Shown piece by piece: positions 6,037 to 40,893 of a stretch of DNA of 64,000 nucleotides. Under the pieces are notes generated by a model. The model searched no databases. It was not told the origin of the DNA and saw nothing but the letters and a program-made list of their open reading frames with translations. Positions within the stretch are counted from its first letter, which is position 1. Each line of letters opens with the position of its first letter. The translations under genes were made by a program, and so were the position numbers. The DNA comes from a virus. Taxonomy: Duplodnaviria > Caudoviricetes. The stretch covers positions 1 to 64,000 of the IMG/VR virus record IMGVR_UViG_3300037400_003797. The stretch is one strand, 5' to 3'.

Positions 6037-6128
6037 AAAAAAAAGAAGCCCGCGCAGTCCTCGACAACTACACGGGCAGTAAACGCCTTAAAAAAGCGTT
6101 CAATCATGTCGAGGGGAGATTCAACGCT
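6037..6128 (-). promoter_or_regulatory. Paired-loop attenuator leader A
   Basis: Upstream hairpin loop CCUCGACA is complementary to terminator loop UGUCGAGG; U tract precedes the RBS. Confidence 0.7.
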
Positions 6129-6148
6129 CTTTTCTTGTTTATAAATCG

Positions 6149-6234
6149 AATTTACACCGATATTTATTATTTGTCAATACTAGAAACAGTAAAAGATACT
6201 ATAAATTGACAGAATAACGGAATGAATGTATTAT
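6149..6234. promoter_or_regulatory. Divergent sigma70-type promoters
   Basis: Minus: TTGACA(6172-6177)-17-TAAATT; plus: TTGACA(6206-6211)-17-TATTAT. Confidence 0.65.
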
Positions 6235-6263
6235 AGAAAATAAGATTGTGGTGAGGTGGAAAA

Positions 6264-7787
6264 GTGCTGAATGGCTTGATAAACGGCAAAAAAGAAAGTT
6301 ACTCGCGTTATATTGCACAAGCCCCACAGCCGATTGTAGAAATTGTAGAATTTAATCCTTCACTTGGAAATGAAATCCCTGTTATAGATTTTTCGGCAAT
6401 AAGAAAATCACCTATTGGAAAAGTTATATTAGCTGACAATGATGAGCAGAATGTTTTACAAGGGTATTCTTTCAAATTTTCTACAAGTGATACAGAAGGA
6501 AGTTTCACACTAACCTTGCATCCGGGCAATGCTGACAAGCCGTATTTTGACAAAATAAAACCGTTGCAGATTGTAAAAATCTATGAAAGAGATAATACAG
6601 GCAGAACACCCGACTTTGTGGGTGTAATCAACAGAAAGAAATTTGTCGCACAGCCGGGAAGCGGTTTGAGAATCAGCATAACAGGAAAATCAGTAGCAAG
6701 TTTTATCAGCAGATTCAAGATTAGTCTTGACCTTAATGCTATGGCGATTACAGAACAACTTGAATCTCAACAGGCATTATCTACAGCACTTACGGCAAGT
6801 CTTGCAGAAGGGAAAATATTAAAAGTTTCAGAAGTTCTAAAGAAAATCTGGGAATACTCCAAAGATTGTGCTTCTAAATGCATTAAACTCTCAAATCCAG
6901 CAATAGAAAAATATGTAGAGAAATATCTAGGAAGCAATTTCTTTTCTTTTGATGAAGAAATGGAGCTTTCCTATCCGCTTTCAAGTGTTTTTAACGGTCA
7001 GAATACAATTATGTTCTGGGATATTGTAAGCGGTATTATTCCGTTTCCTGTTTATGAACGGTTTGCTTTTATCGACGAAAAAGGAAAGACAAAAATAAAA
7101 ATCCGCGAAGTGCCTTTTGATTGTTCTGGTGACGGTTTGGGATTCTCTTCATGGGATAAACTCGAAAAGAACAAGACAGAGTTAGACCCCGCAATCGTCA
7201 AAGGTATTGACCTTGATGTTTCTGATGATGAAGTTTATACGGCTTTTTTCTCTTATGTTATTGGCTCTCCAATAGAGCAGGATAAGGCTTTAAGGCTTGC
7301 TGCACAAACAGGCGGATTCGGTAACGAAAAAGTAGAGATTTACAATAAAAAAGCTGCTATCTACGGTTATAGCCCTTTAACCGTCAATTTTAATGGGTAT
7401 GGCACAAAGGAAAAAACAGCATCAGACCCGGAAAAAAGTTCTGCATACGACAAACTTAATAAACGCCTTATGAATTGGTACGGACATCTTGAAGAGATGT
7501 TAAAAGGCACTATTACAATCTCAACTATTGTAAACAAAGAAGAGAGCAAAGATGAAAAAACACCTATGTGTGGTGAGATTGTTTCTTTTCTTGGCGGCGA
7601 ATTCTATGTGAACGAAGTTGAACATACTTGGAACTTTGGCGGAAACCCGGAAACAAAATTAACGGTATCTCGTGGTGGAAATTACGAAAAGAAAAAGTTT
7701 GCTCCATTAGAGGGTATTACAAAACGCTATGTACTCTTTAAGCAGCTTCTTGATACGGCAAAGGCTAAGGGAATCAATATTCTGTAG
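6264..7787 (+). CDS. Putative baseplate hub protein (gp27/gp44-like)
   Basis: 507 aa; C-terminal FYVNEVEHTW...LTVSRG; first gene of baseplate cluster. Confidence 0.6.
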   Translation: MLNGLINGKKESYSRYIAQAPQPIVEIVEFNPSLGNEIPVIDFSAIRKSPIGKVILADNDEQNVLQGYSFKFSTSDTEGSFTLTLHPGNADKPYFDKIKPLQIVKIYERDNTGRTPDFVGVINRKKFVAQPGSGLRISITGKSVASFISRFKISLDLNAMAITEQLESQQALSTALTASLAEGKILKVSEVLKKIWEYSKDCASKCIKLSNPAIEKYVEKYLGSNFFSFDEEMELSYPLSSVFNGQNTIMFWDIVSGIIPFPVYERFAFIDEKGKTKIKIREVPFDCSGDGLGFSSWDKLEKNKTELDPAIVKGIDLDVSDDEVYTAFFSYVIGSPIEQDKALRLAAQTGGFGNEKVEIYNKKAAIYGYSPLTVNFNGYGTKEKTASDPEKSSAYDKLNKRLMNWYGHLEEMLKGTITISTIVNKEESKDEKTPMCGEIVSFLGGEFYVNEVEHTWNFGGNPETKLTVSRGGNYEKKKFAPLEGITKRYVLFKQLLDTAKAKGINIL

Positions 7788-7794
7788 GTGATTT

Positions 7795-8754
7795 ATGGCG
7801 AAAGAAATAAGCATTGTATTAAATCGTAATTCCTCACCTATGAACAATCCAACAATTCCCGCTCCAATGCCGCCTATAAAAAACATGATTGGATTCTGGG
7901 GAACGGTAACGGAAGTACACCCGGAAAACTGTACTTGCCGTGTAAGAATGGCAAGCGGTTATGTAATTGCGAATGTTCGCGTTATGGTTCAGTCATGGGT
8001 AACGGTTGATGATGAAAAAGGGTATTTGAGCGGCGAGCGATATTTGCCGCCTGTTGATACTTTTGTGCTTTGTGTATGCCCGGAAGGAAATTTAGCGGAC
8101 ACCGTGATTATCGGTAGCGGCTTTGCTCTTTCTGCTGCTGTTCATGCGGATTTTAAGACAGATTCAGACGACAAGAAAGAACTTGATAACGCTGCAAACA
8201 CAAGAAAAATTGTGAAGAATTCGGGCTGGACTTTTGAAACTGACTACCGAAACGGCTCTAAAAAAATCCGTAATGCGCCGGAAGAAGGTGACGCAACAAT
8301 CAGCATAGAAGTGAATCAAGGCGAGGACGGCGAAAAAGCGGACGGCGGAGTAACAACGATTAAGGCATACGGTACGACACTCACGCTGACCGAAAAAGAC
8401 GACCCGGAAATAAAGGTTGAAACAATCGGAAACACAATCTTTGACATAACAGAAGATACGATTGAGTTTTCGACTGACGCTGAAATAAAGCGGACTATTA
8501 AAAAGGCTTTTACGCTTGAAACACAGGACGCTTTGACTTTGACGGCTCAAAAAGATGTCGGCTTGAAGTCAAGTGGAAGCGGAAAACTTGAACTTGGAAA
8601 TACTGTAGCGACTTTGGGAGCGATGATAAATGACTTGCTCGGTTATCTTGCAAGCCTAAAGACAGTCGGAAGCCCGGCAAGCCATACGGCAGCCCCGGAT
8701 TTTATAGCACAGATACAAGCACTTAAAGCAAAGTGGGGGCAGGTGTTTAAATGA
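7795..8754 (+). CDS. Putative baseplate spike (gpV-like)
   Basis: N-terminal GTVTEVHP OB-fold-like region, beta-rich C-terminus; context. Confidence 0.6.
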   Translation: MAKEISIVLNRNSSPMNNPTIPAPMPPIKNMIGFWGTVTEVHPENCTCRVRMASGYVIANVRVMVQSWVTVDDEKGYLSGERYLPPVDTFVLCVCPEGNLADTVIIGSGFALSAAVHADFKTDSDDKKELDNAANTRKIVKNSGWTFETDYRNGSKKIRNAPEEGDATISIEVNQGEDGEKADGGVTTIKAYGTTLTLTEKDDPEIKVETIGNTIFDITEDTIEFSTDAEIKRTIKKAFTLETQDALTLTAQKDVGLKSSGSGKLELGNTVATLGAMINDLLGYLASLKTVGSPASHTAAPDFIAQIQALKAKWGQVFK

Positions 8755-30298: not shown

Positions 30299-30314
30299 TG
30301 TGTTTTTCTCCTCT

Positions 30315-30424
30315 AAAAAAAAGAAAGCCGTCTGTATTCTTGCCTCTACAGACGGCTTAAAATGTCGCTTTCACGACACACCGCATAAAGCGGTTTAGAA
30401 AAGGCAAGATATTTTCTAAACCGT
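30315..30424 (-). promoter_or_regulatory. Paired-loop attenuator leader B
   Basis: UCUUGCCU in upstream hairpin versus AGGCAAGA in terminator loop; TTGACA-18-TATGAT at 30463-30492. Confidence 0.7.
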
Positions 30425-30601
30425 TCTATTTACGAATTGCTTTATTAAGCAATTCTAAAGCAATCATATTGCTAAATAGCGTAATTTGTCAATAAGAAAA
30501 TTATGTAATTAAGCAATTTTTAGTTTGATTCTATGTGATTTTCGTATATTTACTATGTTTCCGGGCAATAAAAAAGGCTTGCGATGAAGCAAGCCCTGTT
30601 T

Positions 30602-30910: not shown

Positions 30911-30911
30911 G

Positions 30912-31085: not shown

Positions 31086-31086
31086 A

Positions 31087-31242
31087 TTACGCTCCTATTT
31101 CTGAATAAAAAATCTGGGCAAGGAATTCACCGTTTTTGTAAACATGAAAATCCGTGTGATGAAAAAAGACATTCAGATTCTTTCCAAATTCCTTTTCGCA
31201 GAAACCCAAGACTTTGTTTTTTCTTGATTCTGTAAGTTTCAT
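31087..31242 (-). CDS. Small hypothetical protein (51 aa, not in ORF track)
   Basis: MKLTESRKNK...; AAGGAG RBS. Confidence 0.55.
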   Translation of the reverse strand: MKLTESRKNKVLGFCEKEFGKNLNVFFHHTDFHVYKNGEFLAQIFYSEIGA

Positions 31243-31405
31243 AAGCCACTCCTTGCAAGGTCTGAATCACCCTACATTTATAATATACACTAATATTTTA
31301 TATCTGTCAATTAAAAATGTATATCATAGGTGTAAAAAGTTCAATAATTATGAAATAAATTAAATTATAGTTGCTAAAAATAAAATTATGGTGTATATAT
31401 GAAGT

Positions 31406-31624
31406 ATGGATATTGTAGAATACATCAAGCTGTGTTGCGTGAAAAAAAATGACATTTCTCTTAGGCAGATTGCCTTAAACGCTGGAATATCACCGCAGAA
31501 TCTAAGCAATAAAATTGCAAAAGGTTCTTTCTATCTCCGTGATATTGAAAAAATTGCAGCCGCATTAAATGCGGATTTGGAAATCAAGTTTATTGACCGG
31601 GAAACAGGAAAGGCGATTATATGA
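31406..31624 (+). CDS. XRE/Cro-like HTH regulator
   Basis: SLRQIALNAGISPQNLSNK...EKIAAAL. Confidence 0.8.
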   Translation: MDIVEYIKLCCVKKNDISLRQIALNAGISPQNLSNKIAKGSFYLRDIEKIAAALNADLEIKFIDRETGKAII

Positions 31625-31935
31625 GCGATTTTGATTTCAGTAAGGTTACTTGTGACAATATAAAGTTTATTCCTCAAAAATCACAGTCTATAAAAGACCT
31701 TGAAAAAGAGTACGAAAAGCAGAGTAAATACATCTTAGATAAAATAAATGAAAAATACTCCAACTCTATTATGTCTGACAGAATCAAGCTGCAAAGGCGA
31801 CAGGAACTTATGGGGTTAAAAAGAATGTTTCTTGACCCGATTTCAGAAAGAATCACGCAGCTTGCAAAAGTTGAAGTAAATACTGCAATGATTCAGATTA
31901 GTGTTGATATAGATTTACCAATCTCCGCGACATAA
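31621..31935 (+). CDS. Hypothetical protein
   Basis: Coupled to upstream HTH gene. Confidence 0.6.
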   Translation: MSDFDFSKVTCDNIKFIPQKSQSIKDLEKEYEKQSKYILDKINEKYSNSIMSDRIKLQRRQELMGLKRMFLDPISERITQLAKVEVNTAMIQISVDIDLPISAT

Positions 31936-32202
31936 ATCTATAACATAAGAAGTGTGCTTAGATTCGTCTGTGTGCCAGCCTTGAACTAGGATGCAAATTA
32001 CTTTATCTTCATAAAAAAATACACGCCTAGAGCCTTGATTGTTTTCAAGCGGATAAACATAACATTTTCCATTCTGCTTCAAATCATATTCAGTCAGATT
32101 CTTTTTTATCATGTACTCTCTGATAATATTATCAATCTTTCTAAATGCAAATTGCAGCCGTTTTGAGATTGTATCTTGAATATGTTTTTCAAACTCTGTC
32201 AT
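31915..32202 (-). CDS. Hypothetical protein
   Basis: 95 aa ORF. Confidence 0.6.
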   Translation of the reverse strand: MTEFEKHIQDTISKRLQFAFRKIDNIIREYMIKKNLTEYDLKQNGKCYVYPLENNQGSRRVFFYEDKVICILVQGWHTDESKHTSYVIDLCRGDW

Positions 32203-32548
32203 AAGATTGTTTGTCCTCTAGGTCGCTGTAATAAAAGATTATTTCCTTTCCTTTTGCCTGTGCATAGTGCCATTCTCTGATTGCGCCTTTTGAATTGCGC
32301 CAATCTGGAAGCATGAAGAGAGCGTCACAGCAATCTATAAGCGCGAAGTCGATATGTAAAAATTGCTCGTATGAAAAAAAATCATACTCGCCGATTTTGC
32401 AGGGATTTATGACTTTAAAGCCTTTTTCTGTAAGTATTCTTTCGGCTTCGGCAAACTTTTTTACATAGTTTTCATCACCTGTAATTTTCCCGCTGATGTA
32501 GATAATTTTATTCAATTTCATCTTCCTTGTTTTCGTTTTCACGGTCAA
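32189..32548 (-). CDS. DUF4406-like protein
   Basis: IYISGKITG, VINP, CDALFMLPDWRNSKGA. Confidence 0.8.
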   Translation of the reverse strand: MTVKTKTRKMKLNKIIYISGKITGDENYVKKFAEAERILTEKGFKVINPCKIGEYDFFSYEQFLHIDFALIDCCDALFMLPDWRNSKGAIREWHYAQAKGKEIIFYYSDLEDKQSYDRV

Positions 32549-32624
32549 ACAGATTCAAATATACGGCACTTGCGGCTAGTCCGCCGATTAAGATAACAAG
32601 CACAATAGATATAACGATTTCCAT
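32508..32624 (-). CDS. Small single-TM peptide (38 aa, not in ORF track)
   Basis: MEIVISIVLVILIGGLAASAV... Confidence 0.5.
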   Translation of the reverse strand: MEIVISIVLVILIGGLAASAVYLNLFDRENENKEDEIE

Positions 32625-32627
32625 AGC

Positions 32628-32783
32628 TTAATCCTTGCAAAGCGCGTCTGAAATAAACATTCCGGCAATGTTAAGGCAAATCAGCAGGAATACTTCTAAA
32701 GCCCTGTTGTTTATATTCATCTGTACAAATTCAATGGCAAAACAACCGAATATATAACCGACTGTGAACTTTTTAATTTTCAT
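32628..32783 (-). CDS. Small membrane protein (51 aa, not in ORF track)
   Basis: MKIKKFTVGYIFG...; GGGAG RBS. Confidence 0.5.
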   Translation of the reverse strand: MKIKKFTVGYIFGCFAIEFVQMNINNRALEVFLLICLNIAGMFISDALCKD

Positions 32784-32801
32784 GCGTCACGCTCCCTTTC
32801 T

Positions 32802-32831
32802 TCCCGGCATTACGCCGGGAGATTTCAAGAT
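32802..32831 (-). promoter_or_regulatory. DGR cis element after VR2 (motif plus hairpin)
   Basis: Minus strand ATCTTGAAATC then TCCCGGC-GTAAT-GCCGGGA. Confidence 0.8.
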
Positions 32832-32837
32832 ATGAGT

Positions 32838-33632
32838 TTACTCGCTATCAGCGGTAAACTCGAAAGCGGGCGCAACGCCGCCACCAGTATAACCCGCATA
32901 GCCGCCGCCGCTATAACCGGCGTCGTCGACCGCGCAGAAGTAGGCGGAGTTCGACGCATAAGGCGTTTTCAGCCACCACCACCATGTATCGTTTTCAAAA
33001 GCAAGAGCTTTGATTCTGTTTTTAATCGCCTTGAAGTACGGCATAAAATCCTTGCTGTCCTCATTGAAAACATTGTCTTTTGAGAGCAGGGAAACATTGA
33101 CTTTTCCTGTGTATTCTTTGAGAGCTTTTGCAAAGTGTTTAGCAAGGTAGACACCGAGCGGTGTTTCTTCAAACGGCTTGCCGGATTCTTCATAATCAAC
33201 ATCATGTCTGAAAAGAATATCCTCAAAGTTGAAAACTACACGGCGCGGCTCAACATGAACGGCGGTAATGACAACATTTTCAAGGTCAATTTCGTCAAAT
33301 TCTTCACCTTCACAATCTTTGACGGCTGGAACTTTGAAATGCGGAATAAGAATCTGCTGACCCGCTGTTACATATTTATCAGCTTCGCCGTTGTTACACC
33401 ATTTGCGGAGCATTTGAAAAATTGTTGTAGAATAAACGCCGGGGTGGGCGATAGACATTATTTCAGCGTATTCAACTTTTCGTGATTCAGCCTTTTCTTC
33501 CTGTTCCTCACGAATTCCCGGTTCAGCAATATCAACGGTATAAACATTTCCGTCAAAAGTTTTCTTTTTGGAAATATTCAAAATTTCCGCTCCCAAATCC
33601 TCAATCTGCTGTGCGAGCAATGCAATTTTCAT
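32838..33632 (-). CDS. Remote DGR target 2; C-terminal lectin-like variable domain
   Basis: WWWWLKTP...GGVAPAF end contains VR2; no signal peptide or TM segment seen. Confidence 0.85.
   Translation of the reverse strand: MKIALLAQQIEDLGAEILNISKKKTFDGNVYTVDIAEPGIREEQEEKAESRKVEYAEIMSIAHPGVYSTTIFQMLRKWCNNGEADKYVTAGQQILIPHFKVPAVKDCEGEEFDEIDLENVVITAVHVEPRRVVFNFEDILFRHDVDYEESGKPFEETPLGVYLAKHFAKALKEYTGKVNVSLLSKDNVFNEDSKDFMPYFKAIKNRIKALAFENDTWWWWLKTPYASNSAYFCAVDDAGYSGGGYAGYTGGGVAPAFEFTADSE
32862..32966 (-). repeat. DGR variable repeat VR2
   Basis: 105-nt ungapped match to TR 17656-17760: 22 mismatches at A, 2 at T. Confidence 0.92.
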
Positions 33633-33634
33633 GT

Positions 33635-34105
33635 TTATTTTCCCCCTTCATACAGGATATATTTGTTTTCAATCAGTTCTTTCATGTCGTCTGCCTGCAG
33701 AATTACAGGCGTTCTACCGTAAGGAATTGAAACGAACAGGTAGAAATGATGTGTGTAAGCGGCAGCTCCTTCTTTTGTAAAAGGGGCGTGTTCCCAGATA
33801 AGATTTGTTTTTGGAAAAAATGTCTTGATAATTTTTGCTGCTCTTTTGTGGTCGAACGGCTGAATATAACTTTTGCCGTCTTTCGTAATGCCGCAAAAAG
33901 TCAAAGACAGGTAATAGCAACTGTTAAGCAAACGATTCTTGAAGCCGGATTTATCCAGCAAGTTGAAAGTGCAGATTACTTTTTCTTCTTGAAAGATAAA
34001 TGTTGAGCTGTCAGAATTCTTAATGCCGTCAGTGCAGATGTTTTTAATTGCGTGTTCAATAATCTTTTCAACGGATTTTGAATCGCATTTCGGGAATGTT
34101 CTCAT
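33635..34105 (-). CDS. Hypothetical protein
   Basis: MRTFPK..., GAGGTG RBS. Confidence 0.7.
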   Translation of the reverse strand: MRTFPKCDSKSVEKIIEHAIKNICTDGIKNSDSSTFIFQEEKVICTFNLLDKSGFKNRLLNSCYYLSLTFCGITKDGKSYIQPFDHKRAAKIIKTFFPKTNLIWEHAPFTKEGAAAYTHHFYLFVSIPYGRTPVILQADDMKELIENKYILYEGGK

Positions 34106-34119
34106 AGAAACACCTCGCC

Positions 34120-34227
34120 AAAAAAGAAGGGCTTTGAAACCGTTTCGTATTCTGGCAATACTACGCGGCACAAAGCCCTAAGTCTGCATAAAGCAGTTTT
34201 GGAAAAGCCAGATAATTCCAAAAATGC
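34120..34227 (-). promoter_or_regulatory. Paired-loop attenuator leader C
   Basis: UCUGGC in upstream hairpin loop versus GCCAGA at terminator apex; TTGACA-18-TATTAT at 34333-34362. Confidence 0.65.
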
Positions 34228-34509
34228 CTTATCGTTTTTCTTCAAAAAAGGAACCCCTTGCAAGCTCTGACCCAAGCAAGGGGCAGAAGAAAAACCCAAC
34301 GATAACCTCTAAGAGGCTTGTTGATATTTAGTATAATAATACTTGTAATCGTATTATGTCAATGATAAATCGTATTGAAATCGTTATAAAATACTAAAAA
34401 GTGTAAATAGTCCGAAAAGCAGAATAAAAGGACTATAATTTACTGTTTTATACTTAATTTTGGTCGAAATATTGAATATTTGCGTAAAATTGACGATAAT
34501 ATTAGCAGA

Positions 34510-34941
34510 ATGGAAAACTTCAACGATAGATTTGAACGCCTTATAGCCGAAAAAGGCAAGAATAAGGCTGACATTGCCGATGCCGTTGGTATATCTCGTA
34601 CAGGTATGTCGTCATGGAAAGACAACGACAGAATACCACGCGCCGATGTCGCCGTAAAAATTGCAAAGATTCTTGATGTTCCTGTGGACTATCTTGTATT
34701 GGGTGAAGATGTCGGATTGAAGCCCGGAAACGAAAAATTGCCCGGAAGATTGCAGGAACTTTCGCAGGCTCAACAAGCCGTTGTAAACTCCCTTGTAGAT
34801 TTATTGAGAGCGCAAACACTCACGCCGGAAGGTGCTTCTGTTGGTACAAGGTGGCAGATGTTGCCGCCGAACAAACAGCAGATTATTCTTGATATGATGA
34901 GCGATATGGAAGCAGCGCAAAAGGGAATAGAAAGGGAATAA
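34510..34941 (+). CDS. XRE-family HTH repressor
   Basis: KADIADAVGISRTGMSSW...PVDYLVLG. Confidence 0.85.
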   Translation: MENFNDRFERLIAEKGKNKADIADAVGISRTGMSSWKDNDRIPRADVAVKIAKILDVPVDYLVLGEDVGLKPGNEKLPGRLQELSQAQQAVVNSLVDLLRAQTLTPEGASVGTRWQMLPPNKQQIILDMMSDMEAAQKGIERE

Positions 34942-35178
34942 AACAAATTATCTATAATTGATTTTACTACGGAAAAATGTAAAATTGTGACGAAAAGAGG
35001 GGTAAAATTGCTACAAATTGACGGAAATTGAATCTGTCTTTTGGTTCAATTCCCCCCATCTCCAATTTTAATAGCCGTAGTTTGTTATATTATTTGTTTA
35101 ATTATAACGAATTACGGTTTTTTTATTTTCTGCCGAAAATCATTATATAATTAAAAAGGGAATAGAAAGGGAATAAAA
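34919..35178 (+). other. Putative attP: tmRNA/tRNA 3'-end-like core (35043-35064) between two identical 25-bp arm-type repeats
   Basis: GGTTCAATTCCCCCCATCTCCA; AAAAGGGAATAGAAAGGGAATAAAA at 34919-34943 and 35154-35178; adjacent to integrase. Confidence 0.8.
35073..35124 (+). terminator. Long hairpin plus T tract after att core
   Basis: CCGTAGTTTGTTATA...TATAACGAATTACGG then T run. Confidence 0.65.
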
Positions 35179-35183
35179 TCATT

Positions 35184-36437
35184 TTGTTTAAGGAGCGGAT
35201 TGTGGAACGGCATTTATTCAAAAGAACTGAAACAAAGAACGGCAGAAAAGAAACACGGTGGTATTATTGGTTTTATGACGAGAACGGCAAGCAGGTCAAG
35301 AAGTCATGCGGTCAGCATGGGAAGCCCTGTTATCTGAAAAAAGAAGCCGAAGCCTTTTTAGCACATCTTGAAGAACAAGACCGAGAGAATCAGAGAGAAA
35401 GACAAGAAGCGCAGCAGGTGAGATTAAAAGATGTCGGCGCGAATCTTTATGACGATGATTCATTTTTTATGAAACTGAAAATGGCAAGGGGTAAAGCATT
35501 GCACTCTCAGACCATAGCTCAAAAAAAGCGGATATTGAAAAGCATAATGTCAGAATTTGGGGAAAGAATACCTAAAACGATTGAAGAAGGTGAGATTGAG
35601 AATTATATAATCTCTCTTGATTATAAAAATTCTTACAAGAATACAATCTTGGGTGTCTTTCGGGATTTGTTTTCGGAGTGCAAGCGTTTAAAAGTTGTTG
35701 AGCATAAACTTGACATTGAATGTTTTTCCCGCGTCAACACTGAAAAAAAAGATATTCTTACTTTGGAGCAATTAAAAATACTTTTCCCTTCTGACAAAAA
35801 TAAACTTGCAGAAGTATGGAGTGTAACAAAAAACGATAAATACATTGGAATTGACGGCTTGGTACATTCTTATGGTTTTATGTACGGTGTTATGTTCAGA
35901 CTTATGGCAAGCACAGGATTAAGACCGGGAGAGGTGAGGGCTGTCTGTATCGACCAGATACAAGAAGGTGGTCTTTTTGTAAATCGTATGCTTGATGTTT
36001 ATGATAATCTGTGTGCATATCTGAAAAAAGGAAATGATGAAAATAAAAAACAGCGTACGGTTTTATTACCGTCCGAAATGGCTAAATTACTTGAAGAATA
36101 TATTGCCATAAGACCAAAGTGTGAGCAAGGTTTTATTTTCTCATTCAACGGTCTTTTTGTTTCAGAAAATCGTCTTGCAAAAAGATTTAAGTATGGGATA
36201 ACTAAAGCTGGAATTTGTTCATCTGGGAAGCGTTTAAGCCCTCATTCTTTGAGATTCACATACAACACTTACACGGTAAATTCTAACCTCATTCCGGCGG
36301 AAGTTTTGCGGAAAATGATAGGTCATAACTCGCAGATTATGACAGATTACTACACAAGACCAGACCTTGAGGCACAGTTGCAGGGCTTGCAGCCGTACCA
36401 AAAAAATGTTGATGAAATCTGGAACAAAGTAAAATAA
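35184..36437 (+). CDS. int: Tyrosine integrase
   Basis: TGLRPGE, HSLR, IGH and catalytic Y (TDYY). Confidence 0.93.
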   Translation: MFKERIVERHLFKRTETKNGRKETRWYYWFYDENGKQVKKSCGQHGKPCYLKKEAEAFLAHLEEQDRENQRERQEAQQVRLKDVGANLYDDDSFFMKLKMARGKALHSQTIAQKKRILKSIMSEFGERIPKTIEEGEIENYIISLDYKNSYKNTILGVFRDLFSECKRLKVVEHKLDIECFSRVNTEKKDILTLEQLKILFPSDKNKLAEVWSVTKNDKYIGIDGLVHSYGFMYGVMFRLMASTGLRPGEVRAVCIDQIQEGGLFVNRMLDVYDNLCAYLKKGNDENKKQRTVLLPSEMAKLLEEYIAIRPKCEQGFIFSFNGLFVSENRLAKRFKYGITKAGICSSGKRLSPHSLRFTYNTYTVNSNLIPAEVLRKMIGHNSQIMTDYYTRPDLEAQLQGLQPYQKNVDEIWNKVK

Positions 36438-36484
36438 AGACCGCTACTATTTTACTTTTTGGCTTGAATGTAAAATAACGCTTG

Positions 36485-36515
36485 AAAGCTCTCTTTTTGG
36501 AAGAGGGCTTTTTTT
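36485..36515 (+). terminator. Intrinsic terminator after integrase
   Basis: AAAGCTCTCTT-TTTGG-AAGAGGGCTTTTTTT. Confidence 0.75.
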
Positions 36516-36687
36516 ATTGTCAAAAGCAATTATGATGTTTCTATAATATAGTCACGATTTCAGCAAGTAAAATCAAGATGTTACTAGATTTAATCAGCGG
36601 TCAGTCATTAGTTATTATTGATTTAGTCAGCACTCTATCAATGGATAGTCAAGATTTATCATGACAAAATCATGATACTATCATGCA

Positions 36688-36742
36688 AGATAAGAATAGA
36701 TTAGATAAGATTAGACTAGAAGAGATAAGAGAAGATGAGATA
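36688..36742 (+). repeat. Degenerate AGAnn pentamer array
   Basis: AGATA AGAAT AGATT AGATA AGATT AGACT AGAAG AGATA AGAGA AGATG AGATA. Confidence 0.8.
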
Positions 36743-36783
36743 AATTTAAAATACTTACCGCCGTAATTTTTTTTCGGCAAAAA

Positions 36784-37422
36784 TCAGTCGATGTGTTTCA
36801 AGACATAGTGAACTCTTCCGACAATTCCTAAACACTGTGAATCCTGTGGTTCTTCTTTTGTTGGATAAAGCGGATTGTCTGACTTGATGATGAACTTCCC
36901 GGAATCTTTATAAACTCGTTTTACATAACCGTCACCGTCACGCATTATTGCGTAAAGCCCTTCGCCGCTATAACCGCATGAATCGCAAAGCACCAAGTCA
37001 CCGCGCCTTAAAGTTGGTTCCATGCTGTCACCGTCAACATAAAGCAAAGCTAAGTTTTCGCCGAATTGTTTTAAGTATCGTGGCACTTCCATGTAGCCGA
37101 TTACTTGCGGTTCTTCCTGTAGGTACTGACCGTACCCGGCTGAAAGTTTTTGATTAAGTACAGGCACAAAGAATTTATCTGTGTCGGAATTTCTGACAAC
37201 TCGCCTTTCGTTTTCTTCCAGACCGTCAATCAAAAAATTAAAAGATACGCCAAAGATTTCAGAGAGCTTTTTTAGTTCCGCAATGTTCGGCAGGCTGTTT
37301 CTCTGAATTTTGATTTCAAGATTACGCGCTCCATAGCCCAATTTTTCAGACAATTCCCTTTGTGTGATACCGTTGCTTTTGCAGAGATTTTGTATTCTTT
37401 CCCAGAATGAAGTTATTTCCAT
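36784..37422 (-). CDS. CI-like repressor (HTH plus S24 peptidase)
   Basis: N-terminal HTH; SAG cleavage site, GDSMEP, VKR, SDNPLY. Confidence 0.92.
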   Translation of the reverse strand: MEITSFWERIQNLCKSNGITQRELSEKLGYGARNLEIKIQRNSLPNIAELKKLSEIFGVSFNFLIDGLEENERRVVRNSDTDKFFVPVLNQKLSAGYGQYLQEEPQVIGYMEVPRYLKQFGENLALLYVDGDSMEPTLRRGDLVLCDSCGYSGEGLYAIMRDGDGYVKRVYKDSGKFIIKSDNPLYPTKEEPQDSQCLGIVGRVHYVLKHID

Positions 37423-37570
37423 GCTCAAATTTTCGGCAGAAAACATCAAAAAAAGCACTGTTTTTTAAGAAATGTTGTGAAAAAGCACAAAAAGGTGTAA
37501 AAACTTATTGACTTTAAAATCAAACAGGTGTAAAAACAGAATCAAGACAACATCAAAACGATGTAACGAC

Positions 37571-37667
37571 AGAGCCATTAACATTACAGCGCGTTGTTAA
37601 TTGCTTTGGCAATTTGGGGAAACCCGGAAAGCCTGTTGGTTTGCGCTGAAACTGACAGGCTTTTTTT
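37571..37667 (+). promoter_or_regulatory. Paired-loop attenuator leader D
   Basis: CAGCGC in upstream hairpin loop versus GCGCUG terminator loop; TTGACT at 37508. Confidence 0.7.
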
Positions 37668-37687
37668 GTTGCAGGGGGATTGAAGGT

Positions 37688-37900
37688 ATGACAGACGCTA
37701 GAAAAGATGCGGTGTTGGCACTGACCGAGCAGATTTTGCGTGAAGCTGATGACGAGTTTAAGGGCATGGCTATTCATAAGGTCGGGGATATGTACGACAG
37801 CGTAGATATTTTCAAGGGCGTGGGCAAGATAAATGTCCGTATTGCCGGAGATAGCCCTCTTGCAATCTTCAAGGATATAGCAAGGGCGATACCTTGTTAA
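37688..37900 (+). CDS. Hypothetical protein
   Basis: MTDARKDAV...INVRIAGDSPLAIFKDI. Confidence 0.65.
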   Translation: MTDARKDAVLALTEQILREADDEFKGMAIHKVGDMYDSVDIFKGVGKINVRIAGDSPLAIFKDIARAIPC

Positions 37901-37907
37901 AAATATG

Positions 37908-38004
37908 GCGCGTGTAAGCCGCTAACGGTTAAGCGGTGTATGTTCTTTTTCCAAAAGTTTTTCCGAAAGTAAATAACTTGCAGGTTCAAGTCCTGTCACG
38001 CGCA
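37908..38004 (+). ncRNA. tRNA-like RNA with non-canonical anticodon/variable region
   Basis: 7-bp acceptor GCGCGTG/CACGCGC plus A; T arm GCAGG-TTCAAGT-CCTGT; D-like arm with GG. Confidence 0.6.
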
Positions 38005-38271
38005 AGAGGAGTTGCTGGAAACAGGGCGCAAAGAGTACGCAGAGGGTGTGAGCAGAGTATGCGGAGGGTATGCGAAAAGAATAGCAAAGGGGCTGTAGAG
38101 TTGCTCAAAGGCTACAGTGAGTATGCTATCCCGGACAAGCGAGGAAAAAATCTAATCCTTGCCACGCGCTCGCAGCGGAGTTTTCGGTGTAGGTAGTGTT
38201 TTGTCTGTTCAAGAGATGTAGAGTGCCAGACCGCAGCAATGCGTTAATTGCAAAAAAACAGGAGAAGAAGA

Positions 38272-39072
38272 ATGACCAACGAGAACATTTTAGAGAACTT
38301 GAAAAAACTGTATCAGTGCAAGACCGAATTCACGGTAACGCAGACAGGAAAGCAGAGCAAAAAAGTAAACGGATTTTATAAGCCGCTGACACATGAAATA
38401 TTCTTGCATAACAAAAACTTCAAATCCGACAACGCCGTAATGTTCACGGCGATTCACGAGCTTACGCACCATATCCAGAATGAAAACGGCGTGAAAGCTG
38501 CAAGAGCGCACAACAACGCTTTTTGGAGTACATTCTACAACCTTCTTGATGAAGCTGAAAGAATCGGCATTTATTCACGCGAACGAAGCGAAAGCGTAGC
38601 GGCAAAAACAAAAGAACTTACAGACATTCAAAAACAGATTATCGAATTGCAGAAAAAGCAGGGAAAACTTCTTGCCGAACTTCACAGGGAATGTGAAGAG
38701 CAGGGCGACAGATACGAAGATGTACTTGAACATGATTTGCAGATTTCCAGAAACAAGGCAAAAGAATTACAGAAACAGGCTTATTTGACTTCTGATGTTT
38801 CAGATGAAATGTCAAAGGCAATCAATTCAGCAAAAGACGCAATGATGAAAAGCGCCGCAATACAGGCGGCTGACAGCGGGGCAACCGTTGAGCAGGTAAA
38901 GGCGATTGCAAAAGACACGGCGAAAAAAACTAAGCCTGCAGACGATGGACTTGATTCACCTTCAAGCCTTATGCGCGAAAAGAAGCGTATTGAAAAAACA
39001 ATCGAGCAGTTACAAGACAGACTTGTAAACATTGACGAGCAGCTTATAAGCATGGGGGTAGATGATGATTGA
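38272..39072 (+). CDS. SprT-like HExxH metalloprotease-domain protein with coiled coil
   Basis: IHELTHH...HNNAFW. Confidence 0.7.
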   Translation: MTNENILENLKKLYQCKTEFTVTQTGKQSKKVNGFYKPLTHEIFLHNKNFKSDNAVMFTAIHELTHHIQNENGVKAARAHNNAFWSTFYNLLDEAERIGIYSRERSESVAAKTKELTDIQKQIIELQKKQGKLLAELHRECEEQGDRYEDVLEHDLQISRNKAKELQKQAYLTSDVSDEMSKAINSAKDAMMKSAAIQAADSGATVEQVKAIAKDTAKKTKPADDGLDSPSSLMREKKRIEKTIEQLQDRLVNIDEQLISMGVDDD

Positions 39073-39298
39073 CGGTAACGAAATCAAGCTGAATACCACC
39101 CAGCAGAGAGTTTTTAATTACATCATGGATTTTGGGTCAATCACGACACTTGAAGCGTGTGTAGATTTGGGCGAAACAAGGCTTTCAGCTCGGATTTTCG
39201 AGCTTAAAAGCAAGGGCGTGAACATTTCAAGTGATTGGATTGAAGTCCAGAACAGGTACAAGGAAAAACGCCATGTAAAGCGATATTACATCGGCTAA
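39062..39298 (+). CDS. Winged HTH phage protein
   Basis: GSITTLEA...RLSARIFELK. Confidence 0.75.
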   Translation: MMIDGNEIKLNTTQQRVFNYIMDFGSITTLEACVDLGETRLSARIFELKSKGVNISSDWIEVQNRYKEKRHVKRYYIG

Positions 39299-39316
39299 AA
39301 ATAAAGTGAGGTGACT

Positions 39317-39757
39317 ATGAAAAAGATTTTTATGATTCTGCTGATTCTTGCAACTTGCCTTATGGTCGGTTGTACAGGCAACGATTGGGCAGAAATGAAT
39401 TATAACCGCGAAGCTCGTTCAGCAAGGTTTCAGTCGGAATATGCGACAACAGTAAACAAGCTGGAAATGAAAGAGGGCAACTTCAAAACTTACAGAAGAG
39501 TGATTTTCTACAATGTCCGGCTTGGTGAAACCGTCTTTGCCTGTGAAGGATATTGTCATGTACAGGTCGATAATGACGGCGATATTGAGATTGTCGTTAA
39601 GACAGGTGATGAAGAATACTTGCGCCATTACTTAGGGCAGAAACAGGATATTACATACTTTTCGGAACAGTTGAAACCTGTAAAACAAGACGAATACCGC
39701 TATCAAATTGTCTGGAATCCTAAATTATGGTTTCCCGAATTCAAGGTAGCGCACTAA
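39317..39757 (+). CDS. Phage lipoprotein
   Basis: Lipobox LMVGC; NFxxxRRVIFYN. Confidence 0.75.
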   Translation: MKKIFMILLILATCLMVGCTGNDWAEMNYNREARSARFQSEYATTVNKLEMKEGNFKTYRRVIFYNVRLGETVFACEGYCHVQVDNDGDIEIVVKTGDEEYLRHYLGQKQDITYFSEQLKPVKQDEYRYQIVWNPKLWFPEFKVAH

Positions 39758-39928
39758 ATAACTATCGGGCAAAAAGTGAGGTGGGAAAATGGGAAGGAGA
39801 ATCTATGTAGAACAGTACACACCGAAGATGTACACAATGCACAAAAACGGCGTACAGACTAGGCGCATTAGCTTTATCCGTTACCTGTTTTTGAAGCTTT
39901 GCGGTAGCAAGGATATTAAAGTCCTTCG

Positions 39929-40270
39929 CTAAAAATCCTGCTGCTTTTCAGATTGCTTTTTGAACAAGTCAATCTGGAATTGCAGCGAGGACATGAGGAA
40001 TGATTTTTGATTTTCATTCAGCGTGTCTAGTTCTGCAAAAAGAAGCCGTATTTCTTGCGGAAAATCACATTTCTCTTGACCTGTAATCAGAAAATCAAGG
40101 GAAACTTTGAAATGCTTTGCGATTGCTACTAAATCCGGGAGAGCCGGGAAGCGTTTAGCCTGTTGGCTGGAATAGTAAGACGATTGCACGATTCCGTTTT
40201 TTTCAAGCATTTCTTTCAGCGAGATACCTTCTTTTTTGCAGAGTTCTTTAATCCGTTCGTAAATATCCAT
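39929..40270 (-). CDS. XRE-family HTH regulator
   Basis: YERIKELCKKEG...VSLDFLITG. Confidence 0.85.
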   Translation of the reverse strand: MDIYERIKELCKKEGISLKEMLEKNGIVQSSYYSSQQAKRFPALPDLVAIAKHFKVSLDFLITGQEKCDFPQEIRLLFAELDTLNENQKSFLMSSLQFQIDLFKKQSEKQQDF

Positions 40271-40349
40271 GCTTTTATGTTCGGAATAATTGCTTAAAAA
40301 CATAACTATCAAACAGTTTGATAGGTGTACTTTACTTTCAAGATAAAGG

Positions 40350-40637
40350 CTATTTAAGCAGGTTGATTATTTCTTGTGCAAGTGCGGCGGCTTTTTCTTT
40401 GGATTCGTCTTTGGGGAATGTCGGTGTATTGCCGGAAACGAGGAATTCGACAGATGTGTTTAGGGCTTCGGCGATTTTTACGGCTTCGATTACATCGGGA
40501 GAGCGATTATTGGACGACAGGGTTTCAATTCTTCTTTCGGTAAATCCACATTCTAGGGCTAATCCCCTTTGGGTTTTACTTTGGAGTTTGATAAGTTCGT
40601 TTGTCCTTTTCCAAAATTCCGTGTAATCCATACGCAA
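40350..40637 (-). CDS. XRE-family HTH regulator
   Basis: TQRGLALECG...TSVEFLVSG. Confidence 0.85.
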   Translation of the reverse strand: MRMDYTEFWKRTNELIKLQSKTQRGLALECGFTERRIETLSSNNRSPDVIEAVKIAEALNTSVEFLVSGNTPTFPKDESKEKAAALAQEIINLLK

Positions 40638-40766
40638 ATTATATCAGAAAAACACACTTTTTTGTGTGAAAACTAATTGACTATCACATAAAAGCGTGAT
40701 ATTAGTATAAGTGTAATCACACGAAAGTATGTGATTATAAATAAAAATCGGATTGTTAATCCGTTT

Positions 40767-40893
40767 AGGCATTTCAACAATATTTTTCGGGTACATTGTT
40801 GAACTGCTTAGTTCATAAGCCTTGTGGCTTTGCACTACCCGAACATTCATGTGTCGTAGCGTGAATGAGTGCATAAGCTACAGGGCTTTTTTT
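40767..40893 (+). promoter_or_regulatory. Paired-loop attenuator leader E
   Basis: UUCGGGUA in upstream loop versus UACCCGAA bulge in the long terminator stem. Confidence 0.65.

What the first reader, a model, noticed from the sequence alone, without database searches (positions are those of the whole stretch)
6037..40893. Five operon leaders share one RNA switch architecture, each with its own complementary loop pair
Seen between promoter and first RBS at five loci: hairpin P1, a short alternative hairpin that uses the 3' strand of P1, then a terminator with U tract whose loop or bulge is complementary to the P1 loop. A (6037-6128, -): CCUCGACA/UGUCGAGG. B (30315-30424, -): UCUUGCCU/AGGCAAGA. 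C (34120-34227, -): UCUGGC/GCCAGA. D (37571-37667, +): CAGCGC/GCGCUG. E (40767-40893, +): UUCGGGUA/UACCCGAA. Alternative hairpins are ACGC/GCGU, CCGC/GCGG, CUGC/GCAG, AAUUGC/GCAAUU and UGAACU/AGUUCA. Primary sequences are largely unrelated while the pairing pattern is kept. Known analogues: P1 c4 and P4 CI RNA-controlled premature termination. Inference: a genome-wide kissing-loop/pseudoknot attenuation system gating accessory operons, possibly read by one antiterminator or releasing small RNAs. I do not recognise it as a named motif.
Basis: partly seen in the sequence, partly recalled or inferred. Interest (0 to 1): 0.85.

Follow-up and report, generated by a model that had tools for sequence, protein, structure and literature searches.

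The report
Kissing-loop leader terminators in Treponema prophage
Five operons of a rumen Treponema prophage start with an unnamed RNA leader in which the loop of a long hairpin pairs with the loop of the terminator behind it, each operon using its own sequence code, which looks like a new natural set of non-interfering RNA switches.

Summary
The window is a temperate phage of about 80 kb whose close relatives sit in rumen and gut Treponema genomes. At all five places a sigma-70-like promoter is followed by a long hairpin (P1), a short competing hairpin (P2) and a U-tailed terminator (T). A loop or bulge of T is complementary to the P1 loop (8, 8, 6, 6 and 8 nt); pairs from different leaders reach at most 5 nt.

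The same architecture recurs in related phages, prophages and metagenome contigs: 31 modules with 28 different loop pairs of 6-9 nt. The pairing changes by compensatory substitutions while the flanks stay conserved. Among hairpin-plus-terminator candidates picked without regard to loops, 22 of 25 have at least 6 complementary nt, against 8% of mismatched pairs.

No Rfam family reaches its threshold, and four full-text searches found no description.

Most likely this is a leader attenuator whose termination is set by a P1-T kissing contact, switchable through P2. The direction of control, and whether it acts within one RNA or between RNAs, are not shown. P2 has good support across the family but is weak at four of the five window loci. 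The leaders head the main lytic and excision operons too, not only accessory ones.

The parts
6149..6177 (-). Promoter of leader A: TTGACA, 17 nt, TAAATT
   Evidence: Read; scored 10 of 12.
6090..6133 (-). Leader A, hairpin P1 (15 pairs, 1 mismatch, 12-nt loop). Loop code CCUCGACA at 6107-6114.
6082..6100 (-). Leader A, alternative hairpin P2. Its 5' arm is the 3' strand of outer P1.
   Evidence: Only 2 of 300 linker shuffles are as good.
6037..6077 (-). Leader A, terminator T (6048-6077) with U tract. Apical-loop anticode UGUCGAGG at 6059-6066.
30463..30492 (-). Promoter of leader B: TTGACA, 18 nt, TATGAT
   Evidence: 11 of 12.
30385..30429 (-). Leader B, hairpin P1 (17 pairs, 1 mismatch, 9-nt loop). 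Code UCUUGCCU at 30402-30409.
30380..30394 (-). Leader B, P2 (ACCGC/GCGGU). An extra small hairpin follows at about 30362-30379.
   Evidence: Weak against shuffles: 83 of 300 as good.
30315..30358 (-). Leader B, terminator T (30325-30358) with U tract. Apical-loop anticode AGGCAAGA at 30338-30345.
34333..34362 (-). Promoter of leader C: TTGACA, 18 nt, TATTAT. It lies 100 nt upstream of P1, with another terminator-like hairpin in between.
   Evidence: 11 of 12; sequence.
34188..34232 (-). Leader C, hairpin P1 (16 pairs, 1 mismatch, 11-nt loop). Code UCUGGC at 34207-34212.
34184..34196 (-). Leader C, P2 (CUGC/GCAG)
   Evidence: Not better than shuffles: 152 of 300 as good.
34120..34179 (-). Leader C, long terminator T (34128-34179) with U tract. 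Apical-loop anticode GCCAGA at 34151-34156.
37508..37536 (+). Promoter of leader D: TTGACT, 17 nt, TAAAAA (weak -10). It is divergent from the CI-like repressor gene at 36784-37458 (-).
   Evidence: (9 of 12). Not listed by the consensus scan.
37570..37608 (+). Leader D, hairpin P1 (13 pairs, 1 mismatch, 11-nt loop). Code CAGCGC at 37587-37592.
37599..37614 (+). Leader D, P2 (AAUUGC/GCAAUU). Its sequence is conserved in D-type homologues.
   Evidence: 55 of 300 shuffles as good.
37626..37669 (+). Leader D, terminator T (37626-37665) with U tract. Apical-loop anticode GCGCUG at 37643-37648.
40677..40705 (+). Promoter of leader E: TTGACT, 17 nt, TATTAG, preceded by TGa. It is divergent from two HTH regulator genes at 39929-40637 (-).
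   Evidence: (9 of 12). Not listed.
40765..40811 (+). Leader E, hairpin P1 (16 pairs, 1 mismatch, 13-nt loop). Code UUCGGGUA at 40786-40793.
40800..40815 (+). Leader E, P2 (UGAACU/AGUUCA). It overlaps 12 nt of the P1 3' arm.
   Evidence: 85 of 300 shuffles as good under the stricter rule.
40817..40893 (+). Leader E, 72-nt terminator T (40817-40888) with U tract. The anticode UACCCGAA at 40836-40843 sits in a 5'-side bulge 19 nt above the base, under an extra apical hairpin.

Best explanation
Each of the five operons starts with a promoter-proximal leader RNA of about 90-130 nt (P1 through the U tract) that works as a transcription attenuator.

Proposed mechanism: P1 folds first. [quoted passage not shown] This contact is compatible with the T stem on paper, because the target is always unpaired in T. 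P1 is long and the linker is short, so the contact must change how fast and how fully T can close. It therefore sets the fraction of polymerases that stop at the U tract. P2 competes for the 3' strand of P1. When P2 forms, P1 and the contact are lost, which makes the leader a two-state switch. The invariant A-G-A/U-U-U base of P1, with its G.U pair, is the likely handle for whatever shifts the balance, such as a protein or the rate of transcription. Private loop codes keep the several leaders of one phage from docking onto each other.

Shown here: the architecture, the promoters by consensus, selection on loop complementarity, the diversity of codes, and P2 as a family feature.

Inferred: that T terminates, that the contact is intramolecular, whether it raises or lowers termination, and what the input signal is.
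For: Architecture:
- P1 and T are in the MFE fold of all five leaders; P2 comes from my own parse of the same leaders.
- 21 of 21 modules examined in eleven phages or prophages have a TTGAC(A/T) -35 box and a -10-like hexamer 8-100 nt upstream, and a ribosome-binding site and start codon after T.

The loop pairing is selected:
- Among 25 unique hairpin-plus-terminator candidates chosen without looking at loops, 22 have at least 6 and 18 at least 7 complementary nt. Of 600 non-cognate pairs, 8% reach 6 and 3.3% reach 7.
- There are 31 modules with 28 different code pairs of 6-9 nt.
- On alignment A6, 97% of cells are paired against 33-51% when partners are slid. Three of 5 kissing pairs change on both sides, and 0 of 500 shuffles reach the covariation score.
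- L219 and L224 differ in the contact by one compensatory swap.
- D-type leaders keep AGAGCAAU...AUUGCUUUGGCA while inner stem, loop and T are replaced, giving at least 12 codes.

The target is always unpaired in T. It is the apical loop in 21 modules and a 5' bulge 19-21 nt above the base in 6. Linkers are shorter in the bulge type: median 9.5 against 19 nt, Mann-Whitney p = 0.002, not corrected for shared ancestry.

P2 beats 95% of linker shuffles in 11 of 21 modules.

Precedent for a P1-loop/terminator-loop contact acting in cis through steric strain from a short linker: the guanidine-IV riboswitch (passages of PMC11611296) and the fhsA motif (passage of PMC11109978).
Against: - There is no direct evidence of termination or regulation.
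- The consensus terminator scan does not list the T hairpins of B-E, because their loops exceed its 8-nt limit.
- In the window P2 is significant only for A, and RNAfold prefers full P1 over P2 in all five leaders.
- With full P1, a collinear kissing helix and full T, linkers of 5-31 nt look too short by my own rough geometry. So either P1 frays or the contact is between molecules. Linker length does not rise with P1 plus T height (Spearman -0.31, p = 0.17).
- The tandem paralogues G020a and G020b differ at 8 of 14 contact positions but only 21 of 119 elsewhere. The orthologues G003a and G020b differ at 0 of 14 against 32 of 120. So the identity of the code matters, not only complementarity, which a purely cis model explains only through avoidance of cross-talk.
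- No factor that would read the P1 base was identified.
Confidence: 0.45

Rival explanations
1. Trans-acting leader RNA, as with P1 c4, P4 CI or Gifsy-1 IsrK. The short RNA released at T accumulates and uses its P1 loop and T loop to kiss the matching loops of nascent or read-through transcripts of the same operon, in the same prophage or in a superinfecting relative. This gives operon-specific feedback or RNA-based immunity. Two molecules could also pair head to tail through both contacts.
For: - Codes behave like specificity determinants. All codes within one genome differ (5 in the window's phage, 3 in G001, 4 in G020). The tandem paralogues G020a and G020b differ at 8 of 14 contact positions against 21 of 119 elsewhere, while the orthologues G003a and G020b keep the code (0 of 14) despite 32 of 120 differences elsewhere.
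- D-type leaders swap inner stem, loop and T between conserved flanks, as immunity regions do.
- In one DNA run a relative's contig aligns on both sides of 40484-40888 but not across it. This is a weak hint, because the island between the joints is only 21 nt.
- Long rigid stems and short linkers suit an intermolecular head-to-tail dimer (my inference).
- E precedes a Bro/ANT antirepressor-type gene, the kind of gene c4 controls in P1 (the P1 fact is recalled).
- Precedent for a terminated leader acting on its own read-through form, and the summary of P4 CI: passages of PMC4825925.
Against: - Hairpin and target are always in one transcript, 5-31 nt apart and in the same order, so the cis partner has the concentration advantage.
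- Linker length differs with the position of the target in T, which points to intramolecular fit.
- No c4-type Rfam model matches.
- T looks able to terminate alone, so a helper RNA has no obvious need.
- Orthogonal codes are also expected for cis elements that must avoid each other.
Confidence: 0.25
2. The product is the point. Each module is a small-RNA gene whose kissing contact builds a compact or coaxially stacked fold for stability, RNase III processing or protein binding. T merely ends the sRNA, and downstream genes are expressed by ordinary leakage or by a general phage antiterminator.
For: - Two further promoter-plus-terminator leaders in the same phage have no loop match (G000 68855-69071 and 77552-77678). 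So the phage seems to use leader terminators in general, which may be overcome by one general mechanism.
- P0 hairpins before P1 and a further covarying hairpin between T and the ribosome-binding site in E-type leaders show that these are elaborate RNAs.
Against: - Every module sits directly in front of a ribosome-binding site and gene in the same orientation.
- P2 competing with P1 is a switch feature, not a stability feature.
- No other site in the phage matches the codes beyond chance.
Confidence: 0.15
3. Chance, or a DNA-level feature: nested inverted repeats that serve as protein-binding or recombination sites, with no role for RNA pairing.
For: The matches of C and D are only 6 nt, and two other 6-nt matches occur by chance in the same genome.
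Against: - Cognate pairs far exceed non-cognate pairs.
- Compensatory changes keep complementarity while the sequence changes.
- One contact contains a G.U pair, L192, which pairs in RNA only.
- The strand is always that of the downstream gene, after a promoter.
- 28 different code pairs cannot be sites for one DNA-binding protein.
Confidence: 0.03

Closest known systems
Guanidine-IV (mepA) riboswitch
   Same: A 5' hairpin loop kisses the loop of the downstream hairpin that becomes the terminator. The contact and full terminator extension compete through a short linker, and the outcome is read-through or termination (passages of PMC11611296).
   Different: There the loops are conserved and the contact needs guanidine. 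Here the loops are hypervariable, the helix is 6-9 Watson-Crick pairs and needs no pocket, several different copies occur per genome, and a P2 competitor is present. No Rfam hit. The sign of control is unknown here.
fhsA motif (riboswitch candidate, Narunsky et al. 2024)
   Same: [quoted passage not shown]
   Different: It is a single cellular leader upstream of one metabolic gene, found in Leptotrichia and environmental DNA, and is a ligand candidate. It is not a multi-copy, code-diversified phage element. I did not see its alignment, because supplements are closed.
P1/P7 c4 RNA, P4 CI RNA, Gifsy-1 IsrK
   Same: In each, a small RNA made from the leader of a phage operon pairs with complementary sites in the same transcript to control what lies downstream. 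P4 CI causes premature termination. Short IsrK acts on its own read-through form (passages of PMC4825925). The point that loop differences set immunity specificity between P1 and P7 is recalled, not checked.
   Different: Those RNAs act in trans, after processing in c4 and CI, on linear targets and RBS regions in enterobacterial phages. They have a conserved fold held in Rfam. Here the target is the loop of an intrinsic terminator, no Rfam model matches, and trans action is not shown.
pT181 / pIP501-type antisense attenuators
   Same: A loop-loop kiss decides between terminator and read-through in a leader.
   Different: Those need a countertranscript from the opposite strand. No promoter-like site of 10 of 12 or better lies on the opposite strand of any of the five leaders. 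One 9-of-12 match lies opposite C's terminator.
trpB motif (Rfam RF04312)
   Same: A long hairpin followed by an intrinsic terminator in a 5' UTR. Leader B aligns to the whole model.
   Different: B scores 35.5 bits against a gathering score of 59, and the other four leaders do not match. The trpB motif is found in Firmicutes and Fusobacteria before amino-acid transport genes, and its proposed anti-terminator lies in the right shoulder of P1, not in a loop contact (passage of PMC11109978).
Lambda PR'-tR' (6S RNA) and HK022 put leaders (recalled)
   Same: Constitutive phage promoters are followed by a short leader and a terminator at the head of an operon. In put, a two-hairpin leader RNA controls termination in cis.
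   Different: Lambda needs the Q protein, and put acts on the polymerase without loop-loop pairing. No Q-like protein was found here.

Membership tests
c4-type antisense RNA families of Rfam (C4, IsrK) | Match to the family covariance model | tested here: not met
   All 4227 Rfam 15 models were scanned. The window at E<=10 gave nothing on the leaders except a spurious U6atac hit on A (17.3 bits against 33). The five leaders alone, at E<=1, gave no c4 or IsrK model.
c4-type antisense RNA families of Rfam (C4, IsrK) | Stable small RNA from the leader that acts in trans on sites of the same transcript | not testable with these tools
   Only assembled contigs of RNA runs were on hand, and these cannot show RNA ends or levels.
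Guanidine-IV riboswitch (mepA motif) | Conserved loop nucleotides that form the ligand site; match to the Rfam model | tested here: not met
   No Rfam match. The loops differ in 28 code pairs.
Guanidine-IV riboswitch (mepA motif) | Kissing contact between the P1 loop and the loop of the terminator-forming hairpin | tested here: met
   6-9 nt of complementarity in 31 of 31 modules collected, with covariation. Note that these modules were partly found by this very feature. The set chosen without it gives 22 of 25.
trpB motif RF04312 | Score at or above the gathering threshold of 59 bits | tested here: not met
   B scores 35.5 bits. A, C, D and E have no match.
Intrinsic (Rho-independent) terminator | G+C-rich stem directly followed by a U tract | tested here: met
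   In the window's five, the outer stems have 6-17 pairs and the tails have at least 5 U in the first 8 nt. In the set chosen without regard to loops, stems have at least 8 pairs and tails at least 6 U in 8; folds.
Intrinsic (Rho-independent) terminator | Small loop (3-8 nt in the consensus scan) | tested here: not met
   The scan of 30000-41000 does not list the T hairpins of B, C, D or E. Their tops are wider than that limit or are branched: 6-8 contact nt plus a few free nt, or internal loops and a bulge.
Intrinsic (Rho-independent) terminator | RNA 3' ends at the U tract | not testable with these tools
   No raw RNA reads were available. One RNA-library contig runs across B's U tract (29465-30377), which may be read-through or DNA carry-over.
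Kissing-loop complex (structural class) | A short Watson-Crick helix between two closed loops with few unpaired flanking nucleotides | tested here: met
   The helix is 6-9 nt. The P1 loop has 0-4 free nt on the 5' side and 0-2 on the 3' side, and the target nearly fills the T loop or a 7-nt bulge. Physical formation was not tested.
Countertranscript (pT181-type) attenuator | Antisense promoter inside the leader | tested here: not met
   No site of 10 of 12 or better lies on the opposite strand of the five leaders. One 9-of-12 site lies opposite C's T.

The most novel reading that the evidence does not exclude
The loop codes are addresses in an RNA-only regulatory network. Each operon's terminated leader is a diffusible key that recognises only its own lock on nascent transcripts. 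One prophage would then run five independent c4/CI-like circuits (immunity, timing or threshold switches). The codes would diversify under selection, much as immunity specificities do. That would make these Treponema phages a natural library of non-interfering kissing-loop transcription regulators.
Probability: 0.25. Interest if true: 0.9.

Novelty: new variant of a known kind. Interest (0 to 1): 0.72.

Why it matters
- Control of termination by RNA pairing in a leader is well known. Here, however, the pairing partners are a hairpin loop and the terminator's own loop. The pairing sequence is free to vary, and one genome carries several mutually non-matching versions.
- If the contact sets termination, it is a simple, programmable way to tune or gate operons, close to what synthetic biologists build from pT181.
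- It may explain how a prophage keeps its lytic, excision and accessory operons quiet or times them.
- It is a first regulatory RNA candidate for the little-studied phages of rumen and gut Treponema.
- It gives Rfam a new, covariation-supported family.
- The compensatory-mutation and code-swap experiments are easy to design, because nature has already supplied 28 working pairs.

Tried and rejected
- Covariance model R1, built from the P1 hairpins of B and C, was too narrow. With filters off, E ranked 5th (E = 0.014), A 12th (2.5) and D 24th (8.3) among 27 hits, mixed with noise. The alignment made from its hits also held reverse strands and terminators, so I built no second model.
- MAFFT alignments of all five P1 hairpins, and of 13 D-type leaders, were not structurally consistent. 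RNAalifold on A6 recovered P1 only. Formal pair counting was therefore done only on A6, for P1 and five contact columns.
- Megablast of 25000-45000 against GenBank phages found no match.
- Integrase, Bro/ANT and DUF1351 proteins as IMG/VR queries gave 2, 1 and 1 loci. The DUF1351 homologue has no leader in front of it.
- The D-type pattern in IMG/VR gave 9 stretches, of which only 1 is a true module, the contig already known.
- The S2-type pattern in 338 genomes of the genus of G018 matched 3 genomes. The pattern is too narrow to measure prevalence.
- Allowing G.U in the non-cognate control made it useless, because stem parts of T then match. I rely on the Watson-Crick control.
- A looser census, taking any terminator with at least 7 nt of upstream complement, added only low-complexity A/U matches and one possible extra module in L137. 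Seven related phage contigs fetched whole (G007-G010, G012-G014) showed none, and G011 had only 12 terminators to test.
- Sequencing runs were contigs only. RNA-library contigs cover parts of 29136-43000, but leader bins 30204-30737 and 40350-40883 have no cover in X15, and 40350-40883 none in X17. A part without cover proves nothing. The joints 40484->40743 and 40763->40888 in X4 have a side of only 21 nt.
- A search for other sites matching the 8-nt codes in the phage gave 0-5 extra sites per code over both strands, about the number expected by chance.
- Leader peptides: B's only upstream ATG lies inside the -10 box, and E's is followed at once by a stop (read).
- A tRNA-like hit at 37908-38004 (27.6 bits against 29) was not confirmed by ARAGORN.
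- Supplementary alignments of PMC11109978 (trpB and fhsA motifs) could not be seen.

Full report
WHAT THE WINDOW IS

The window lies in a single contig of 80,496 nt. The first 30 nt of the contig recur at position 80,354, so the unit is about 80.35 kb and is circularly permuted or terminally redundant. G+C is 41%.

It is a temperate phage. Family scans found:
- a tyrosine integrase at 35184-36437;
- a CI-like repressor (HTH plus S24-like part) at 36784-37458 on the minus strand;
- three further HTH regulators;
- a recombination directionality factor at 39317-39757;
- a Bro-N/ANT protein, YqaJ, RecT, a ParB-like protein, a methylase, a DnaC-like loader, SSB and a RusA-like resolvase;
- small and large terminase subunits;
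- tail proteins, and a reverse transcriptase behind an Rfam RT-2 RNA.

Megablast found nothing similar among GenBank phages.

Relatives of the large terminase in species-representative genomes are almost all Treponema MAGs from rumen and gut (25 loci). Four of them are 99-100% identical. Two of those four lie inside Treponema contigs of 113 and 157 kb. The runs that hold this DNA are bovine, sheep, pig and other gut metagenomes. The host is therefore most likely a rumen or gut Treponema. Two of the four near-identical contigs are binned as Clostridia and Lachnospiraceae, which I read as mis-binned phage contigs.

CHECK OF THE OBSERVATION

RNAfold gives each leader a long 5' hairpin and a U-tailed 3' hairpin. 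The z-scores against dinucleotide shuffles run from -3.5 to -7.0.

It has 13-17 pairs with one 1x1 mismatch, because an outer helix (5' AGRGC, 3' GCUUU) continues the inner one. The 3' strand of that outer helix is what the short alternative hairpin P2 uses.

The loop matches are exact: 8, 8, 6, 6 and 8 nt. In A-D the target fills the apical loop of T. In E it is a bulge on the 5' side of a 72-nt T.

Cognate pairs stand apart from non-cognate pairs. The diagonal of the 5x5 table is 8, 8, 6, 6, 8 and all 20 other values are 2-5. A blind scan of the whole phage puts the five on top. It also finds two 6-nt matches inside genes that look like chance, so C and D need outside support.

P2 exists at all five loci but is statistically convincing only in A.

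RELATED SEQUENCES

My descriptor was a hairpin of at least 12-13 pairs, a terminator within 35-90 nt, and the longest loop match. It found the same architecture in these places:
- IMG/VR phages that share the terminase at 50-62% identity;
- Treponema prophages;
- metagenome contigs found through the conserved flanks of the D-type leader. That scan gave 116 stretches, of which 80 loci were returned. Fourteen have a P1-like hairpin, and 12 of these are true modules.

In total I collected 31 modules with 28 different code pairs of 6-9 nt. Their duplex energies run from -8.6 to -15.5 kcal/mol.

Copy number per genome varies:
- the window's phage has five;
- G020 has four;
- G001 has three;
- G003 has two;
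- G006 and G015 have one each;
- seven related contigs fetched whole (G007-G010, G012-G014) have none by my scans, and G011 had only 12 terminators to test.

All 21 modules for which I examined the upstream sequence have a TTGAC(A/T) -35 box and a -10-like hexamer 8-100 nt before P1.

IS THE PAIRING SELECTED?

Four lines of evidence say yes.

1. I chose hairpin-plus-terminator candidates without regard to loops: P1 of at least 13 pairs, T within 35 nt with at least 8 outer pairs, and at least 6 U in 8. This gave 25 unique sequences, some of them near-identical copies from sister phages. Twenty-two have at least 6 complementary nt, 18 at least 7 and 11 have 8. Of 600 non-cognate pairs, 8% reach 6, 3.3% reach 7 and 1% reach 8, and part of those come from the sister copies.

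2. On a six-sequence alignment (A6), 97% of cells pair, against 33-51% when partners are slid by 1-3 columns. Three of the five contact columns change on both sides. None of 500 shuffles reaches the covariation score.

3. Close pairs differ by clean compensatory changes:
- GCAUGAC/GUCAUGC against GUACGAC/GUCGUAC;
- CCUGAUAG/CUAUCAGG against CCUGUUAC/GUAACAGG;
- GCACGUUU/AAACGUGC against GCGUACUU/AAGUACGC;
- a single swap, CCGUCAC/GUGACGG against CCGUGAC/GUCACGG.

4. One contact holds a G.U pair, which argues for RNA and not DNA.

ANATOMY OF THE FAMILY

A module reads as follows: promoter; often a small hairpin P0; P1 of 13-21 pairs; P2; sometimes one more small hairpin; T; U tract; ribosome-binding site.

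Near the base of P1 the pairs A-U, G.U, A-U (5' AGA, 3' UUU) recur in most of the modules parsed; the G.U shifts by a position in C and E, and G006a and G015a lack the motif. They are invariant in the six aligned sequences.

The contact lies at the 3' side of the P1 loop, with 0-4 free nt before it and 0-2 after.

T comes in two forms. In 21 modules the target nearly fills the apical loop. In 6 modules, including E, it is a bulge of about 7 nt that starts 19-21 nt above the base of T, under an extra apical hairpin. Linkers are shorter in the second form: median 9.5 against 19 nt, p = 0.002, not corrected for ancestry.

The target is thus always unpaired in the folded T. The design is a contact that coexists with the terminator on paper, not an anti-terminator that sequesters a stem strand.

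The helix length of 6-9 pairs with almost no free loop residues is what solved kissing complexes show. I state this from recall.

P2 has 4-9 pairs and its 5' arm overlaps 5-13 nt of the P1 3' arm. It beats 95% of linker shuffles in 11 of 21 modules, where about one would be expected by chance. Its arms differ between subfamilies. P1 and P2 exclude each other.

CONTEXT IN THE PHAGE

- C, D and E each start next to a divergently transcribed HTH repressor-type gene.
- E heads the long plus-strand operon from the Bro/ANT gene through recombination and replication genes to the terminase and beyond.
- D heads the operon with the directionality factor.
- B heads a DUF1351 and methylase operon.
- A heads a minus-strand operon (HNH, PAPS-reductase-like) set inside the late region.

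The leaders therefore gate core as well as accessory functions.

Six other strong intergenic promoters have no module. Two of these lie outside the window at G000 68855 and 77552, and are followed by structured leaders ending in terminators without a loop match. This suggests a general reliance on leader terminators.

No known antiterminator family appeared among the 40 proteins of this phage that I scanned.

HOW IT MOST LIKELY WORKS

The best reading (0.45) is a cis attenuator. P1 folds first. Its loop captures the top of T as that emerges. Because P1 is long and the linker short, the contact alters how readily the lower stem of T closes while the polymerase sits on the U tract. P2 removes P1, and with it the contact.

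Two directions remain open:
- By analogy with the guanidine-IV riboswitch, the kiss could hinder completion of the terminator through the short linker (passages).
- Alternatively it could bring the ends of an unusually large loop together and help T nucleate.

The consensus scan's failure to list these terminators, because of their large loops, fits either direction.

The main rival (0.25) is trans action of the terminated leader, as in P4 CI or IsrK (passages). The behaviour of the codes favours it. The tandem paralogues G020a and G020b differ at 8 of 14 contact positions but at 21 of 119 other positions. The orthologues G003a and G020b share the code while differing at 32 of 120 other positions. 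D-type leaders also exchange everything between conserved flanks. But cis elements that must not dock onto one another would be selected for the same non-matching codes.

A third reading is a structural small RNA (0.15). Chance or a DNA site is very unlikely (0.03).

COMPARISON WITH WHAT IS KNOWN

No Rfam 15 family reaches its threshold in any of these scans:
- the window;
- the five leaders scanned alone with lax filters;
- the rest of the phage;
- fifteen loci that hold homologous modules, where only tRNAs were found.

The best sub-threshold match is leader B to the trpB motif, at 35.5 bits against 59. That is a generic hairpin-plus-terminator likeness (passage).

Four full-text searches found no description of a hypervariable hairpin-loop to terminator-loop contact in phage leaders. 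Subscription journals and supplements were not searched.

The closest known systems are the guanidine-IV riboswitch and the fhsA candidate, which share the contact, and c4, CI and IsrK, which share the leader-RNA logic. The family is a member of none of them.

VERDICT

This is a real, conserved and so far unnamed RNA motif family of Treponema phages. It has strong covariation for the loop-loop contact and good family-level support for the competing hairpin. The attenuator function is inferred and its direction unknown.

I rate it a new variant of a known kind, with interest 0.72.

Noticed in passing
window 17764-19264 (+): An Rfam RT-2 RNA (108 bits, full length) lies directly in front of a reverse transcriptase gene. 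It follows tail genes with Listeria-Bacteroides repeats and DUF6273. PADLOC gives only generic RT matches. It may be a diversity-generating retroelement or another RT-plus-RNA system.
   Followed up: partly
G000 contig 68815-69075 and 77515-77685 (outside the window): Two more strong promoters are followed by structured leaders (216 and 126 nt) that end in U-tailed hairpins, with no loop match to an upstream hairpin. There is no Rfam match in 63901-80496.
   Followed up: partly
window 34245-34290 (-): Between C's promoter and P1 lies a further terminator-like hairpin (CCCCUUGC...GCAAGGGG followed by UUCCUUUUUU), so leader C may hold two terminators in tandem.
   Followed up: no
window 40894-40957 (+); also L071, L169: In E-type leaders a further hairpin lies between the terminator and the ribosome-binding site (GCGGUUAGGGUG...CACCCAAAACCGC in E), with different but still complementary arms in relatives. 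This could act on translation of read-through RNA.
   Followed up: no
window 30436-30457, 40718-40763; L004, L160 and others: Most modules have a small hairpin (P0) just before P1. B and the D-type leader of G019 share the same P0 (AAUUGCUUAAUAAAGCAAUU), although the rest of those two modules differs.
   Followed up: no
L005 5640-5725, L040, L032, L007 (upstream of S2-type modules): Direct repeats of CGTTA/CGTTT plus an A-rich tail, at about 11-12 bp spacing, occur in the promoter spacer and again between the start site and P1. They may be operator sites for a DNA-binding regulator.
   Followed up: no
L005 5725-5825, L040 2613-2711, L032 4935-5027: In several relatives a complete promoter-plus-module-plus-small-gene unit sits right after the large terminase gene in the same orientation. 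The product starts like a signal peptide. Its terminator would also block late transcription unless that transcription is made terminator-resistant.
   Followed up: no
window 1-143 and contig 80354-80496: The contig ends repeat its start (about 143 nt), so the phage genome is complete and circularly permuted or terminally redundant. IMG/VR classes it as linear.
   Followed up: partly
window 37601-37614 and 37670-37679 (+); L004: In D and its homologue L004, the 3' arm of P2 (GCAAU) can also pair with (G/A)UUGC just after the U tract and next to the GGGGGA ribosome-binding site. This pairing appears in the MFE folds of both.
   Followed up: no
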